Assembly (NCBI GenBank): GCA_000004985.1
Contig: GG739226.1
Length of the DNA: 3,453 nucleotides
Strand: one strand, 5' to 3'
Source of the DNA: Naegleria gruberi
Lineage: Eukaryota
Positions 528-2,714 of the stretch are shown one piece after another. The translations under genes were made by a program, and so were the position numbers. The notes beneath the pieces were generated by a model. It saw only the letters and a list, made by a program, of their open reading frames with translations, had not been told where the DNA came from and did not search any database. The first letter of the stretch is position 1; the number at the start of each line of letters is the position of its first letter.

Positions 528-1157
528 TTAATATAATTTAGACTTCAAATGTAACATTTCCATCATCTTTTGCAAGCCTTTGGATTGAATTTCTTGTAGA
601 CGAGGATAGTTACGAGAGTTGTGAATGACAGATTCAAATCGAGCCATCAAAACTTGAACTCTATTCAACAACGCCTCATTGGAAGAGTAATGACGAAGTG
701 TTTTGGTTGAGACAAAACTTATGACATCTCCATCGGATAGTCTATCACCAACTTCGTAGTTACGTCTAATCTCCTTGATAGTAGTTAGACCCCAATGTTT
801 ACCAGTGAAATCCTCATCAGCGGATTCCTCATCAAGGTCTTCATCAAGTTGATTAGCTTGTTGCAGAATAGGAGGAACAGCTTCAAGATGCTTTATTCTC
901 TCACCCAAAGAAGTGATGGCGTTGAAAATAGCATCAAGGTTCTTTTCAGAACCAGCTTGGTTGTTATCCAAGGTTTTGCTTGTTGGGTCAACCACAGAGG
1001 GGAGTGAAGCTGAGCTACCATTGTCAGTTACTAGGATGTAACCTGACTTGTAGGTAGAAGTTGAAGATTTGCTTACTGAAACTCTTTGACGAATGTTGGA
1101 GATATTCGCTTTGCTTGGTGTTTGAACCATTTCAATATACTTAATTTTTTTGAGCAT
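528..1157 (-). CDS. Small hydrophilic protein of unknown function, paralog A of a tandem family. It is 209 aa from the first ATG (MLKKIKYIEMVQTPS…) and 199 aa if translation starts at the conserved internal ATG at 1130 (MVQTPSKANIS…). It has a Ser/Thr-rich N-terminal half, an acidic stretch (DEDLDEESADEDF) and a C-terminal approx. 85-aa extension that the paralog lacks. Stop is TAA at 528-530.
   Basis: This is the longest ORF in the window. The track's listed start at 1172 is a TTG, which is not used in eukaryotes. The first ATG is at 1155-1157 with a poor -3 T context. The second in-frame ATG at 1128-1130 has a gaaATGG context and aligns with the start of gene 2. Codon usage is yeast-optimal (GGT 7 of 9 Gly, AGA, TTG, TCT, CAA). 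The overlapping +strand ORF 795..1007 is an antisense shadow. Protein- and DNA-level homology to gene 2 supports that this is a real gene. Confidence 0.75.
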   Translation of the reverse strand: MLKKIKYIEMVQTPSKANISNIRQRVSVSKSSTSTYKSGYILVTDNGSSASLPSVVDPTSKTLDNNQAGSEKNLDAIFNAITSLGERIKHLEAVPPILQQANQLDEDLDEESADEDFTGKHWGLTTIKEIRRNYEVGDRLSDGDVISFVSTKTLRHYSSNEALLNRVQVLMARFESVIHNSRNYPRLQEIQSKGLQKMMEMLHLKSKLY

Positions 1158-1290
1158 AAAATTATTTATCAACTCAATTTTATTGTTTACAATTTGTCGA
1201 AATGCTAACGTTGCATCGTTCCTCGCAACTCTACATTATTGAATCTTCTGTAGCCTTGTTGATTGTTGGATTGATAAGTATTACCTTGTC
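1131..1290 (-). promoter_or_regulatory. 5' leader and proximal promoter block of gene 1, homologous to the block upstream of gene 2.
   Basis: On the minus strand the block reads …attgtaaacaataaaattgagttgataaataatttt ATGCTCAAAAAAATTAAGTATATTGAA ATGG. This matches gene 2's upstream …attgtaaacttaataaaatataagttgagtatttttcc ATGCTCAAAAAATTATCACA ATGG. Further upstream, the +strand sequence cgttcctcgcaactctacattattgaatcttc…gataagtatta matches cacttcgctcagaattagacattttgaa…gttcttc…cgatgtatta. No TATA consensus is visible in this block. Confidence 0.6.
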
Positions 1291-1465
1291 CTTGGTTGAA
1301 GTTGTTGTAGTTGTAGCCAGCTTGTCTAGTATTGTATCTAGTGAGGAACTTACGAAAATTAAGGGTTCTGCTAGCCCATTTGCTGACTTTTTCAATAGTT
1401 TCTGTGTTTGAATGGGCATTAAAAATGACTTTGAAGCAGCTGAAAACTTCTCTAACAGCTACAAA
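1208..1465 (-). other. An 86-codon stop-to-stop open frame with no start codon. It encodes a Q/N/Y/G-rich, prion-like peptide: …FVAVREVFSCFKVIFNAHSNTETIEKVSKWASRTLNFRKFLTRYNTRQAGYNYNNFNQGQGNTYQSNNQQGYRRFNNVELRGTMQR*. It may be a 5'-truncated gene relic, an unrecognised exon, or an emerging ORF.
   Basis: The frame runs from TGA at 1466-1468 to TAG at 1205-1207 on the minus strand. Its only in-frame ATG is three codons before the stop. Codons are strongly yeast-optimal: CAA 5 vs CAG 0, AAC 6 vs AAT 4, TAC 3 vs TAT 1, all five Arg as AGA, and TTC. The listed 62-aa minus ORF (1231..1419, with rare codons CCC/GGG/CTA/ATA) and the 69-aa +strand hydrophobic ORF (1202..1411) are other frames of the same DNA. 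The homologous stretch upstream of gene 2 has stops in all frames. Confidence 0.3.
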
Positions 1466-1535
1466 TCAGGAGGTTCACTTAACCAAATCACCTCCAAACA
1501 ACAAGAGAAGACGATTAAATCTGCTGAAAAAGTAA

Positions 1536-1624
1536 AAACAGCAGAAGATTAGATTTAACTCAGAAATATTCTAAATAAATTCAAATCCTTGAAGAATAAG
1601 TGGTAAATCAAGAATATCACTCTC
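1536..1624 (-). terminator. 3' UTR and probable 3'-end formation region of gene 2.
   Basis: The region immediately downstream of the TGA is AT-rich, with TATTTAGAATATTT on the minus strand. It retains coding-like similarity (GATTTGAAT) to the C-terminal extension that is still coding in gene 1. That fits gene 2 being truncated by a premature stop. Confidence 0.3.
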
Positions 1625-2029
1625 TCAAACGCTTGCAGATTTCAATGACTCACCAAACATTCTTTGGTAAGAGTCGATGATGTGGTTTTTAAACCAATCA
1701 TCTAGTTCATCAGCAACTCTTGCTCTTTTACCAGAAACCTCTTCAGATGGGTTGGACTCAAACAATTCCATCGAAGAAGCGAGAGCAGAAGCACCTTGTG
1801 AACCCACCTTGGCGTTGTTTGAGTCTTTGCCAGGTGATATCTTTTGTTGATTGTTCTTCTTGTTCTTCTTTGTGTCTTGAACAGGAGGAGGTGAAGGCAT
1901 AGCAGAACCATCAGAAGAATTTGAGGTGGAAGGAGTTAAAACAATGACTCGTTGCTCGCTACCTGCAGAAGGTGAGCTAAGGTCTTTCGTTTTCTTGTTG
2001 TTCTTTGGTGTAGTTGGTGTTGGGGCCAT
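1625..2029 (-). CDS. Small protein of 134 aa, paralog B of the same family. It begins MAPTPTTPKNNKKTKD…, has an S/T-P-rich and K/N-rich low-complexity N-terminal two-thirds with NLS-like basic clusters, and ends …KRARVADELDDWFKNHIIDSYQRMFGESLKSASV. Stop is TGA at 1625-1627. It is C-terminally truncated relative to gene 1.
   Basis: The ORF has an ATG at 2027-2029 and an in-frame upstream stop at 2060-2062. Codon usage is yeast-preferred (AAG, AAC, CAA, GGT, TCT, AGA). Several segments align with gene 1: MAPTPTTPK/MVQTPSKA; SDGSAMPSPPPVQDTKK/GSSASLPSVVDPTSK; DSNNAKVGSQ/DNNQAGSE; ADELDDWFKNH/ADEDFTGKHWG; IDSYQRMFGESLKSASV/IKEIRRNYEVGDRLSDGDV. The shadow ORFs 1702..1911(-) and 1720..1902(+) overlap it. 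Confidence 0.72.
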   Translation of the reverse strand: MAPTPTTPKNNKKTKDLSSPSAGSEQRVIVLTPSTSNSSDGSAMPSPPPVQDTKKNKKNNQQKISPGKDSNNAKVGSQGASALASSMELFESNPSEEVSGKRARVADELDDWFKNHIIDSYQRMFGESLKSASV

Positions 2030-2187
2030 TGTGATAATTTTTTGAGCATGGAAAAATACTCAACTTATATTTTATTAAGTTTACAATGAAAACAAGTCCA
2101 TTCTTCACTTCGCTCAGAATTAGACATTTTGAAAAATGTTCTTCATTAACCAAATTAACTCCTGTTCGATGTATTAGGAAGAAATGT
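2030..2187 (-). promoter_or_regulatory. 5' leader and proximal promoter block of gene 2. It contains a conserved uATG at 2049..2047 and a weak TATA-like AATATAAG about 40 nt upstream of the ATG.
   Basis: Homology to 1131..1290 is described in that feature. The upstream ATGCTC… opens a 38-codon uORF that is out of frame with the main start and overlaps it. The block ends inside the left arm of the 19-bp inverted repeat. Confidence 0.6.
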
Positions 2188-2216
2188 AGATTCTCAAACA
2201 TTTCTTCCTAATACAT
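2169..2216. repeat. Perfect 19-bp inverted repeat (hairpin) in the gene 2 upstream region. The arms are atgtattaggaagaaatgt (2169-2187) and acatttcttcctaatacat (2198-2216), separated by a 10-nt loop agattctcaa. It lies about 140-190 bp upstream of the gene 2 ATG.
   Basis: The base-by-base reverse complement matches 19 of 19 positions. The left arm corresponds to the gene 1 region gataagtattacc, which is only weakly similar, so the palindrome is specific to the gene 2 copy. Confidence 0.9.
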
Positions 2217-2273: not shown

Positions 2274-2485
2274 TTGAGAAAGGCTAAACAAATGAACATT
2301 ATTATTGGTAAGAAGAGAAAGAATGAGAAGACTTTGATATAAGGATTTGGTAAAAACAATACAAAAATTATGCACTCGAGTGGCATTGTTAGGTAAAGAT
2401 ATACATTTCTTTTGTATTATCAAACTTTCTTGAACTACAAAACAAAATTAAAACAGTACAACTCAAAAAAGTACTTACAAAATTG

Positions 2486-2510
2486 TATTTCAAATATTTC
2501 AAATATTTCA
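2486..2510. repeat. Short tandem repeat with a 9-bp unit: tatttcaaa × 2.8.
   Basis: The sequence is tatttcaaa tatttcaaa tatttca, within an AT-rich spacer. Confidence 0.7.
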
Positions 2511-2714
2511 CACACATGAAATTCAATACAATGCACGTATTGATTGATCATGTTGATTATTGTTAATTTGTTTTTTTTGTATGATTAAAATGAAAGTCTT
2601 GTTATTTCTATTTATTCCATTTCGTTTGTTCATTTGTTGCCTATTATATTACATCAAATCACAAATCTCATTCACAATAAATCAAGTTGTTTTTTATTTG
2701 GAGAAATTGAATTC

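What the first reader, a model, noticed from the sequence alone, without database searches (positions are those of the whole stretch)
528..2187. Two adjacent minus-strand genes are diverged tandem paralogs that share a conserved leader containing an upstream ATG
The two proteins align at their N-termini and in a short C-terminal block. In addition, the roughly 130-150 bp immediately upstream of each start is clearly homologous at the DNA level. Both carry the element ATGCTCAAAAAA(A)TTA, then 8-14 nt, then ATGG. In gene 1 this upstream ATG is in frame and would add MLKKIKYIE to the protein. In gene 2 it is out of frame and opens a 38-codon uORF that overlaps the main start. An ATG conserved in a leader despite a frame change suggests selection on the nucleotide element, such as a core promoter or initiator or a translational-control uORF, rather than on the peptide. 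The family has no domain I recognise. It is S/T-P-rich with basic NLS-like clusters and an acidic patch, and looks like a lineage-specific small nuclear phosphoprotein.
Basis: seen in the sequence. Interest (0 to 1): 0.55.

Follow-up and report, generated by a model that had tools for sequence, protein, structure and literature searches.

The report
Two decayed DIRS-like retrotransposon 5' ends
The two "paralogous genes with a shared leader" are broken front ends of two related tyrosine-recombinase (DIRS1-like) retrotransposons lying head to tail in the amoeba Naegleria gruberi, and the shared leader is the elements' conserved 5' terminal region, so this is ordinary mobile-element debris.

Summary
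The sequence observation is largely real. Both minus-strand ORFs are preceded by a homologous leader that contains ATGCTCAAAAAA(A)TTA. The upstream ATG is in frame in gene 1 and out of frame in gene 2.

The interpretation as fungal tandem-paralog nuclear phosphoproteins is wrong. The DNA is from Naegleria gruberi.

- **Gene 1** is a 3'-truncated copy of the roughly 340-aa first ORF (gag-like) of a multi-copy DIRS1-like retrotransposon, here called family A. In a related contig this ORF is followed by ORFs for reverse transcriptase with a Dam-like methyltransferase domain and for a tyrosine recombinase.
- **Gene 2** is the N-terminal piece of the ORF1 of a second, related family B. In this copy it has a roughly 216-nt deletion and a roughly 150-nt inverted segment, and it is cut off by the 5' end of element A.
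- **The leaders** are the 97-105-nt 5' terminal regions of the elements. Both start with TGT. Across four copies from two families and two organisms they share the invariant blocks ATTGTAAA, TTGAGT and ATGCTCAAAAAA, and they are more conserved than ORF1.

The distance from the upstream ATG to the main ATG is 27, 22, 20 and 20 nt, so the frame is not conserved. Selection therefore acts on a DNA/RNA element. A TATA-like box plus initiator, or a terminal hairpin, is the most likely function, but this is inferred and untested. Novelty is low.

The parts
2030..2126 (-). Element B (DIRS1-like family B) 5' terminal region, the leader of 'gene 2'. It begins with TGTCTAATT at 2126.
   Evidence: Homology to the independent copy L002 starts exactly at window 2126 = L002 185 (blastn 1752-2126 vs L002 185-547, E 6.6e-33). 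The leader is 81% identical to L002 against 63% for the adjoining ORF1.
2035..2049 (-). Conserved element ATGCTCAAAAAATTA of element B. The upstream ATG is at 2049-2047, 20 nt before the main ATG and out of frame.
   Evidence: It is invariant in four leaders.
2058..2087 (-). Conserved blocks of leader B: ATTGTAAAC (2087-2079), AATAAAAT (2076-2069) and TTGAGT (2063-2058).
   Evidence: Four-leader alignment and coordinates. TTGAGT is complementary to GCTCAA in the 15-mer.
1936..2049 (-). 37-codon ORF opened by the upstream ATG of element B, overlapping the ORF1 start. It is probably incidental.
   Evidence: The frame and length of this ORF are not conserved in L001 or L002.
1625..2029 (-). 'Gene 2': the N-terminal fragment of family B ORF1 (gag-like). 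It ends at a stop created by a roughly 216-nt deletion plus frameshift at about 1625-1643.
   Evidence: It is 96% identical to N. gruberi P0008 and P0011, which continue for 70 or more residues where the window has SASV*. L005 positions 283-518 have no counterpart in the window.
1550..1624 (-). Family B ORF1 middle fragment (ESDILDLPLILQGFEFI*NISELNL).
   Evidence: tblastx window 1624-1547 vs L005 518-595. It matches P0008 residues about 170-195.
1397..1549 (+). Segment of family B ORF1 (MGIKNDFEAAENF...KVKTAED) that is inverted in this copy. Boundaries are accurate to about +/-3 nt.
   Evidence: blastn and tblastx match L005 587-739 on the opposite strand to the flanking pieces. P0008 and P0011 carry it in direct orientation. 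Re-inverting it restores a collinear frame.
1236..1396 (-). Family B ORF1 C-terminal fragment (TETIEKVSKWASRT...QQGYRRFNN). It is cut about 16 codons before the ORF1 stop by the 5' end of element A.
   Evidence: tblastx window 1384-1235 vs L005 761-910. L005 ORF1 continues with ...GYRKFNNQQGPNRDSNNNNTNK*.
1131..1235 (-). Element A (DIRS1-like family A) 5' terminal region, the leader of 'gene 1'. It begins with TGTAGAGTTGCG at 1235; the boundary could be up to 5 nt further out, at 1240.
   Evidence: blastn window 539-1240 vs L001 632-1332, 77.5% identity, E 2.8e-164. The sequences upstream of TGT are unrelated. The leader is 89% identical against 75% for ORF1.
1142..1157 (-). Conserved element ATGCTCAAAAAAATTA of element A. 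The upstream ATG is at 1157-1155, 27 nt before the main ATG and in frame in this copy only.
1172..1193 (-). Conserved blocks of leader A: ATTGTAAAC (1193-1185), AATAAAAT (1184-1177) and TTGAGT (1177-1172).
528..1130 (-). 'Gene 1' (NAEGRDRAFT_49699): the first roughly 198 codons of the roughly 340-aa family A ORF1 (gag-like). Homology to full-length copies ends at about 536-539, and the last 2 codons and the stop are foreign.
   Evidence: It is 100% identical to P0001 and 96% identical to the 341-aa P0002, which continues after ...MLHLKSKL. The blastn end point is 539. AAGTCTAAATTA lies at 545-534.

Best explanation
The region holds the 5' portions of two related DIRS1-like (tyrosine-recombinase) retrotransposons of Naegleria gruberi, both on the minus strand.

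**Element B (2126 to 1236).** It consists of its 97-nt 5' terminal region plus a rearranged ORF1. The ORF1 has a roughly 216-nt deletion and a roughly 150-nt inversion.

**Element A (1235 to about 536).** Its 5' end abuts B near the end of B's ORF1. Element A consists of its 105-nt 5' terminal region plus the first 60% of its ORF1.

Neither copy retains the reverse transcriptase or recombinase genes, so both are dead fragments.

**The shared leader.** It is the homologous 5' terminal region of the two families. This is the part of such elements that carries the promoter and the cis-signals for replication, and it is therefore held more constant than the fast-evolving gag-like ORF1.

**The ATG in ATGCTCAAAAAA(A)TTA.** It is incidental to a nucleotide element at the inner edge of that terminal region. 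My preferred, inferred reading (about 45%) is a core promoter:
- AATAAA(A/G)T sits 33-34 nt upstream of the A of CTCA in three of the four leaders, with the spacing of a TATA box and an initiator.
- In Dictyostelium DIRS-1, transcription starts at the inner end of the left terminal repeat.
- On this reading the upstream ATG is not even in the mRNA.

A second reading (about 20%) is a short hairpin, TTGAGT...GCTCAA, used in replication.
For: **Organism and gene 1**
- Gene 1 is 100% identical to an N. gruberi predicted protein. Paralogues of 339-344 aa are 71-96% identical.

**Family A is DIRS1-like**
- In contig L001 the ORF1 homologue (71% aa identity) is followed by an ORF with RVT_1 (E 2.5e-25) and a Dam-like domain (E 1e-4).
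- An overlapping, stop-free frame ends in a Phage_integrase domain (E 5e-5).

**Family B is DIRS1-like**
- Gene 2 hits P0008 and P0011 of N. gruberi at 96% identity.
- A family B-like ORF1 in L005 is 57% identical to P0008. It is followed by ORFs with RVT_1 (E 1.9e-23), Dam-like and Phage_integrase (E 1.4e-6) domains.

**The two families are related**
- The pol ORFs of L001 and L005 are 54% identical over 632 aa.
- ORF1 of A against B gives Smith-Waterman z = 8.4 and hhalign E = 5e-4.

**Boundaries and rearrangements**.

**Leader homology and conservation**
- Homology.
- The leader is more conserved than ORF1: 89% against 75% in family A, and 81% against 63% in family B.
- The frame of the upstream ATG varies, with distances of 27, 22, 20 and 20 nt.
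- Read directly from the sequences, the upstream ATG has a weak context (pyrimidine at -3, C at +4). The main ATG has G at +4 in all four leaders and A at -3 in three of the four.

**Literature**
- The DIRS-1 transcription start lies at the inner end of the left repeat, and the repeat acts as a promoter (PMC7192593, PMC4482531).
- N. gruberi is already reported to carry 7 DIRS1-like copies in 6 families (PMC3266345).
Against: - No RT or YR coding sequence is present in the window itself. Assignment to DIRS1-like families rests on homology of ORF1 and leader to other loci.
- The DNA of the N. gruberi paralogues could not be fetched.
- The family-defining inverted terminal repeats and internal complementary region were not seen, because every related contig ends 21-95 nt after the recombinase stop.
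- The promoter/initiator reading has no transcript evidence.
- One of the four leaders (L002) has the AATAAAAT box 45-46 nt upstream rather than 33 nt.
- Whether element A inserted into B or the two were joined by a later rearrangement is unknown. No family B sequence resumes beyond the truncated end of A.
Confidence: 0.9

Rival explanations
1. The conserved blocks form a replication or recombination signal, not a promoter. TTGAGT and GCTCAA, the latter inside ATGCTCAAAAAA, would be the arms of a short hairpin at the inner edge of the terminal repeat. Such a hairpin could, for example, self-prime reverse transcription when present in the inverted right-hand copy, or mark the repeat boundary for the recombinase.
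For: - The two invariant blocks are complementary in all four leaders, and the loop length varies between the leaders.
- A fifth, leader-like sequence in L008 has TTGAGC...GCTCAA, a G.U to G-C change.
- In L008 the similarity ends exactly at ATGCTCAAA, as expected for the boundary of a repeat unit.
- A hairpin near the 3' end of DIRS-1 RNA has been proposed as a primer (PMC7192593).
Against: - The stem has only 6 bp, with no two-sided compensatory change.
- Folding energies of the leaders are not unusual (z -1.5 to -2.0).
- The complementarity was noticed post hoc among a few blocks.
- No right-hand terminal copy was recovered to show the hairpin there.
Confidence: 0.2
2. The upstream ATG is a functional translational-control uORF, or an alternative start, that tunes ORF1 (gag-like) expression from the element's mRNA.
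For: - The ATG is invariant in four leaders and lies 20-27 nt upstream of the main ATG.
- In three of the four leaders it opens an ORF that overlaps the main start.
Against: - The frame, length and peptide are not conserved. One leader is in frame (9 added residues). The other three are out of frame, with a roughly 14-codon uORF read by hand in L001, a 37-codon ORF in the window's element B, and a longer one in L002.
- The context of the upstream ATG is weak (Y at -3, C at +4), whereas the main ATG has G at +4.
- The nine bases after the ATG are also invariant, which a bare uATG would not need.
- If transcription starts at CTCA, the ATG is not in the mRNA.
Confidence: 0.1
3. This is the first reader's view: two tandemly duplicated host genes encoding a lineage-specific small nuclear phosphoprotein with a shared promoter or leader.
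For: - The two ORFs are adjacent, on the same strand and distantly homologous, with homologous leaders.
- Gene 1 is annotated as a predicted protein in N. gruberi.
Against: - Both ORFs are truncated or rearranged versions of roughly 300-340-aa ORFs that are multi-copy at 96% identity.
- In other loci those ORFs are immediately followed by RT-MT and YR ORFs.
- Gene 2 carries a deletion, an in-frame stop and an inverted segment.
- Homology between the two units starts exactly at element 5' ends that are also defined by independent copies.
- The organism is not a fungus.
Confidence: 0.03

Closest known systems
DIRS1-like retrotransposons (DIRS order; prototype Dictyostelium discoideum DIRS-1), already reported in Naegleria gruberi (7 copies, 6 families; Piednoel et al. 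2011, PMC3266345)
   Same: - ORF1 (gag-like, no recognisable domain) is followed by RT/RNase H with a Dam-like methyltransferase domain, and by a tyrosine recombinase.
- The recombinase reading frame overlaps the RT ORF for about 1.8 kb without stops (L001, L003).
- There is a short non-coding 5' terminal region directly before ORF1.
- Copies cluster and interrupt one another, as DIRS-1 does.
- In DIRS-1 the left repeat is the promoter, and transcription starts at its inner end (PMC7192593, PMC4482531).
   Different: - The window holds only dead 5' fragments.
- The 5' terminal region here is about 100 nt, against about 330 nt in DIRS-1.
- Inverted terminal repeats and the internal complementary region could not be verified. 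One locus hints at an inverted copy after the recombinase gene (L006) and another at a direct copy (L008).
PAT-like / Ngaro elements (tyrosine-recombinase retrotransposons with split direct repeats)
   Same: - They have the same enzymatic repertoire. PAT-like elements also carry the methyltransferase domain.
- A direct, leader-like copy after the recombinase coding region in L008 would fit an A1...B1-A2-B2 layout.
   Different: - No B1/B2 direct repeats flank the copy in L008.
- Piednoel et al. classed the N. gruberi elements as DIRS1-like rather than PAT-like on protein similarity (PMC3266345).
- The evidence comes from a single decayed locus.
TATA box plus initiator core promoters of retroelement terminal repeats (for example, LTR promoters)
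   Same: - An A/T-rich AATAAA(A/G)T box lies 33-34 nt upstream of a conserved CTCA(A)n element.
- Both are located in the terminal repeat just upstream of gag.
   Different: - No transcription start has been mapped, and I found no description of Naegleria core-promoter consensus in the literature search.
- The spacing differs in one of the four leaders.

Membership tests
DIRS1-like retrotransposon | Reverse transcriptase/RNase H ORF downstream of ORF1 | tested here: met
   The feature is not in the window, where both copies are truncated. It is present in the loci that carry the homologous ORF1s: L001 has RVT_1 at E 2.5e-25, and L005 has RVT_1 at E 1.9e-23 plus RVT_3 (RNase H-like) at E 7e-3.
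DIRS1-like retrotransposon | Tyrosine recombinase instead of a DDE integrase | tested here: met
   Phage_integrase hits in L001 frame 0 (E 5e-5, below the gathering score) and in L005 (E 1.4e-6, 28.6 bits against a 27.1 cutoff). The GHSLRIGA (HxxR) motif and C-terminal RY motif are present in homologues P0013-P0022.
DIRS1-like retrotransposon | Methyltransferase (Dam-like) domain C-terminal to RT/RH; this distinguishes DIRS1 and PAT from Ngaro and VIPER | tested here: met
   PF05869 Dam hits at the same position in three loci (E 1e-4, 6e-4, 2e-5). All are below Pfam's gathering score. The support is consistent but weak.
DIRS1-like retrotransposon | Long overlap of the recombinase ORF with the RT ORF | tested here: met
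   L001 frame 0 is stop-free from 1794 to the contig end while the RT ORF runs 1675-3612. In L003, ORF 1033-3645 overlaps ORF 917-2845. L005, L006 and L007 show only a 4-nt overlap.
DIRS1-like retrotransposon | Inverted terminal repeats plus internal complementary region | tested here: inconclusive
   - No contig reaches the 3' terminus.
- The L006 tail has an inverted leader-like stretch (score 38, reached by 1 of 1000 shuffles, 24 comparisons made).
- No inverted copy of either leader is present in the window.
DIRS1-like retrotransposon | The window sequences belong to such elements (homology of ORF1 and leader) | tested here: met
   - Family A: window 539-1240 against L001, 77.5% nt identity, E 2.8e-164.
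- Family B: window against L002, E 6.6e-33, plus collinear tblastx hits to L005 ORF1.
- P0008 is 96% identical to gene 2.
PAT-like / Ngaro (split direct repeats) | A1 ... B1-A2-B2 direct repeats | tested here: inconclusive
   A direct leader-like copy follows the recombinase coding region in L008 (score 39 against 20.9 +/- 2.6). No flanking B repeats were found, and the locus is decayed.
LTR retrotransposon (Ty3/gypsy, Ty1/copia) | Long direct terminal repeats and a DDE integrase | tested here: not met
   No integrase (rve) hit was found; a tyrosine recombinase is present instead. The C-terminus of the family A recombinase (P0013) is not encoded by a leader-A-like sequence.
uORF-regulated gene (conserved peptide uORF) | Conserved uORF frame, length or peptide | tested here: not met
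   The distance to the main ATG is 27, 22, 20 and 20 nt. The upstream ATG is in frame in one leader and out of frame in three, and the peptides differ after MLKK.

The most novel reading that the evidence does not exclude
Naegleria DIRS-like elements may have an unusually short terminal repeat unit of about 90-100 nt, running from TGT to ATGCTCA. Its inner edge would be a conserved hairpin or initiator module, TTGAGT-loop-GCTCAAAAAA, shared across families whose gag-like ORF1s are only about 20% identical. The unit may occur both inverted (L006) and direct (L008) after the recombinase gene. That would be a terminal architecture intermediate between DIRS1-like (ITR plus ICR) and PAT-like (split direct repeat) elements. 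The module would serve both as the transcription start and as a replication signal.
Probability: 0.15. Interest if true: 0.35.

Novelty: already known. Interest (0 to 1): 0.15.

Why it matters
**Annotation.** NAEGRDRAFT_49699 and its relatives (P0002, P0004, P0005, P0007, P0008, P0011) are "predicted proteins" in the N. gruberi proteome. They are in fact gag-like ORF1s, or fragments of them, of DIRS1-like retrotransposons and should be masked as repeats.

**Mobile-element biology.** The roughly 100-nt terminal region with invariant blocks shared by two families gives a compact candidate promoter and replication signal for a tyrosine-recombinase retrotransposon. The host has few characterised promoters, so the region could be useful as a small promoter for Naegleria transfection if it proves active.

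No new biological principle is indicated.

Tried and rejected
- **Pfam on both window ORFs and on two intervening small ORFs.** Only sub-threshold noise was found.
- **Word-index protein search with gene 2.** It found nothing. This was a false negative, because the exhaustive HMMER search later found P0008 at 96% identity.
- **First profile-profile comparison (A2 against A3).** It was uninformative because the family B profile lost its C-terminal half. It was repeated with L005 and L003 ORF1s added.
- **Fetching N. gruberi DNA for P0001, P0002, P0005, P0008 and P0010.** None is on record.
- **Scan of JGI metagenome contigs for the composite leader pattern.** It gave 0 hits.
- **Attempts to reach 3' termini through recombinase homologues (L003-L008).** All contigs end just after the recombinase gene or are rearranged.
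- **LTR model, with the leader as a copy of the recombinase 3' end.** Rejected for family A, because the P0013 C-terminus does not match the leader translation.
- **Conserved RNA structure of the whole leader.** Rejected: z-scores are -1.5 to -2.0 and only a 6-bp invariant stem is shared.
- **tRNA and Rfam scans of the window.** Nothing was found.
- **Early guesses from the sequence alone, dropped once the organism and homologues were known.** These were a yeast Forkhead site or PAC/RRPE motifs, a linear killer-plasmid promoter, and a Trichomonas-type initiator.
Full report
**1. What is in the window**

The window is 32% G+C. On the minus strand there are two ORFs.
- "Gene 1" has its ATG at 1130 and its stop at 528 (200 aa).
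- "Gene 2" has its ATG at 2029 and its stop at 1625 (134 aa).

Each is preceded by ATGCTCAAAAAA(A)TTA, at 1157-1142 and 2049-2035. The 12-mer occurs exactly twice in the window, against 0.10 expected.

The upstream ATG of gene 1 is in frame (27 nt upstream) and adds MLKKIKYIE. That of gene 2 is 20 nt upstream and out of frame, and opens a 37-codon ORF (1936-2049) across the main ATG. The spacers between the element and ATGG are 11 and 5 nt, not 8-14 nt.

The leaders align well above chance. The local score is 48 against 17.8 +/- 2.9 for shuffles, with none of 2000 shuffles reaching it. Only about 57 nt are strongly alike, and the homology ends about 100 nt upstream of each ATG. The two window proteins themselves are not significantly similar (BLASTP E = 0.42).

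**2. Identity of gene 1**

Gene 1 is 100% identical to a Naegleria gruberi predicted protein, NAEGRDRAFT_49699. It has N. gruberi paralogues of 341 and 344 aa (96% and 77% identity) and a 339-aa relative (71%) in an ENA metagenome contig. The full-length proteins continue for about 140 residues beyond ...MLHLKSKL, so the window copy is truncated at about 536-539.

In contig L001 the 339-aa ORF has three notable neighbours.
- It is preceded by the same leader.
- It is followed by an ORF with RVT_1 (E 2.5e-25) and a Dam-like methyltransferase domain (E 1e-4).
- A second frame stays stop-free across the RT ORF and ends in a Phage_integrase domain with GHSLRIGA.

This is the architecture of DIRS1-like retrotransposons. 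These elements were already reported in N. gruberi, with 7 copies in 6 families (PMC3266345). I call this family A.

Window 539-1240 matches L001 632-1332 at 77.5% nt identity (E 2.8e-164). Upstream of TGTAGAGTTGCG (window 1235) the two loci are unrelated. That point is therefore the element's 5' end.

**3. Identity of gene 2**

A word-index search found nothing. The exhaustive HMMER search found N. gruberi P0008 (96% identity) and two metagenomic relatives. P0008 and its cluster mate P0011 are further N. gruberi copies.

They differ from the window copy in two ways.
- They continue after ...MFGESLK with about 71 residues that the window lacks.
- They carry MGIKNGFEAAENF...KVKA on the same strand, whereas the window encodes it on the plus strand (1412-1552).

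A Logan contig (L005) carries a family B-like ORF1 that is 57% identical to P0008. It is followed by RT (RVT_1 E 1.9e-23, Dam-like E 6e-4) and a tyrosine recombinase (Phage_integrase E 1.4e-6). Gene 2 is therefore the N-terminal piece of the ORF1 of a second DIRS1-like family, B.

Against L005, the window shows four collinear pieces.
- 1690-1643 matches L005 236-283.
- 1624-1547 matches L005 518-595.
- 1394-1546 matches L005 587-739, on the opposite strand.
- 1384-1235 matches L005 761-910.

This amounts to a deletion of about 216 nt, which together with a small frameshift creates gene 2's stop, and an inversion of about 150 nt. Re-inverting 1397-1549 restores a collinear reading frame.

ORF1 of B is cut after ...GYRRFNN, about 16 codons before its end, exactly where element A begins. 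An independent family B copy (L002) shares homology with the window from TGTCTAATT (window 2126 = L002 185) onward, which defines B's 5' end.

**4. Relationship of the two families**

The pol ORFs of L001 (A) and L005 (B-like) are 54% identical over 632 aa.

The ORF1s are far more diverged.
- BLASTP of P0008 against P0002 gives a collinear 280-residue alignment at 23% identity, E 0.083.
- Smith-Waterman gives 90 against 38.8 +/- 6.1 for shuffles, z = 8.4.
- hhalign of the two small family alignments gives E 5e-4 over 139 columns.

It is wrong in the sense of a tandem gene duplication. The two units are separate element copies, each starting at its own 5' terminus, and the downstream one interrupts the upstream one.

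**5. The leader**

I aligned four leaders: A from the window, A from L001, B from the window and B from L002. The invariant features, in order, are:
- the terminal TGT;
- ATTGTAAA;
- (A/G)TTGAGT, preceded by AATAAA(A/G)T;
- ATGCTCAAAAAA;
- a variable spacer;
- ATGG.

Within each family the leader is more conserved than the adjoining ORF1: 89% against 75% in A, and 81% against 63% in B. The upstream ATG lies 27, 22, 20 and 20 nt from the main ATG, so it is in frame once and out of frame three times. It has a pyrimidine at -3 and C at +4. The main ATG has G at +4 in all four leaders and A at -3 in three.

**6. How the leader probably works (inferred)**

In Dictyostelium DIRS-1 the left terminal repeat is the promoter. 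Transcription starts at its inner end, so the mRNA lacks most of that repeat. The missing ends are rebuilt from the internal complementary region (PMC7192593). Both terminal repeats have promoter activity (PMC4482531).

In the Naegleria leaders the 15-mer sits at the inner edge of the roughly 100-nt terminal region. AATAAA(A/G)T lies 33-34 nt upstream of the A of CTCA in three of the four leaders and 45-46 nt upstream in L002. This spacing fits a TATA box and an initiator. On this reading the ATG lies just upstream of the transcription start and is never translated, which would explain the indifference to frame. I give this about 45%.

A second reading (about 20%) starts from the observation that TTGAGT and GCTCAA are complementary in all four leaders, with a loop of varying length. 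A leader-like sequence in L008 has TTGAGC/GCTCAA. In L008 the similarity ends exactly at ATGCTCAAA, as if this were the inner boundary of a repeat unit. The stem has only 6 bp, lacks two-sided covariation, and the leaders do not fold unusually well.

A genuine regulatory uORF gets about 10%.

**7. What could not be settled**

The defining inverted terminal repeats and internal complementary region were not seen. Contigs L003-L007 stop 21-95 nt after the recombinase gene, probably because assemblies break at repeats.

Two observations point in different directions.
- L006 is family B-like and comes from the same sample as L002. It has an inverted leader-like stretch starting about 20 nt after the recombinase stop (score 38, reached by 1 of 1000 shuffles, 24 comparisons made).
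- L008 has a direct leader-like copy.

N. gruberi genomic DNA for the paralogues was not retrievable, and a metagenome scan for the leader pattern found nothing.

**8. Verdict**

The locus is a pair of dead 5' fragments of known-type DIRS1-like retrotransposons in a species where such elements are already reported. Novelty is low and interest about 0.15. The practical value lies in repeat annotation of several N. gruberi "predicted proteins", and in a compact candidate promoter and terminal signal for these elements.

Noticed in passing
window 2169-2216 and 2249-2277: A perfect 19-nt inverted repeat, ATGTATTAGGAAGAAATGT / ACATTTCTTCCTAATACAT, with a 10-nt loop. A third, direct copy (76% identical) lies 87 nt away. 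The repeat sits 43 nt outside the 5' end of element B and is absent from the flank of the independent copy L002, so it is not part of the element. It may be a small hairpin element or the terminus of another transposon.
   Followed up: partly
window ~1397-1549: A roughly 150-nt segment of element B's ORF1 is inverted relative to P0008, P0011 and L005. The breakpoints carry a short inverted repeat, TTCTG(C)TGTTT / AAACACAGAA, which suggests inversion by recombination or template switching between short inverted repeats.
   Followed up: yes
L008 825-915: A leader-like sequence in direct orientation lies within or after the decayed recombinase C-terminal coding region of an N. fowleri-like element. 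It begins with TGT and ends exactly at ATGCTCAAA, and no ORF1 follows. The score is 39 against 20.9 +/- 2.6 for shuffles.
   Followed up: partly
L006 2728-2779: An inverted leader-like stretch, ATAACTCA...CTTTTATGATATTGGTTTTGCAATG, starts about 20 nt after the recombinase stop of a family B-like element, and the contig ends inside it. It is a possible right inverted terminal repeat.
   Followed up: partly
L005 3722-3759, L006 2707-2735, L007 1700-1720: A conserved motif, (CTCGGAAC)YTTACCCATTWGT, lies directly after the recombinase stop codon in three diverged elements. It is a candidate internal complementary region or other cis-element.
   Followed up: no
L003 1-117 vs L001 ~300-417: The sequence flanking the L001 element on its 5' side reappears, reverse-complemented, at the start of L003, next to a different 5'-truncated DIRS-like copy from the same sample. 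This may be a rearrangement, a repeated target or an assembly chimera.
   Followed up: no
L001 1794-4436; L003 1033-3645: The recombinase reading frame stays free of stop codons for about 1.8 kb while it overlaps the RT ORF in another frame. The DNA is AT-rich. This is the long ORF overlap described for some DIRS1-like elements.
   Followed up: partly
N. gruberi proteins P0002, P0004, P0007, P0008 (all listed with a longest contig of 196,593 nt): Family A and family B ORF1 copies appear to share another scaffold. This suggests clustering of these elements, as is known for DIRS-1 in Dictyostelium. It was not verifiable without the DNA.
   Followed up: no
window 2485-2519: A short tandem repeat of ATTTCAAAT (about 3 copies) lies in the AT-rich flank.
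   Followed up: no
tool behaviour: The word-index protein search returned no hit for gene 2, although a 96%-identical N. gruberi protein (P0008) is in the same collection. A negative from that tool should not be read as absence.
   Followed up: yes
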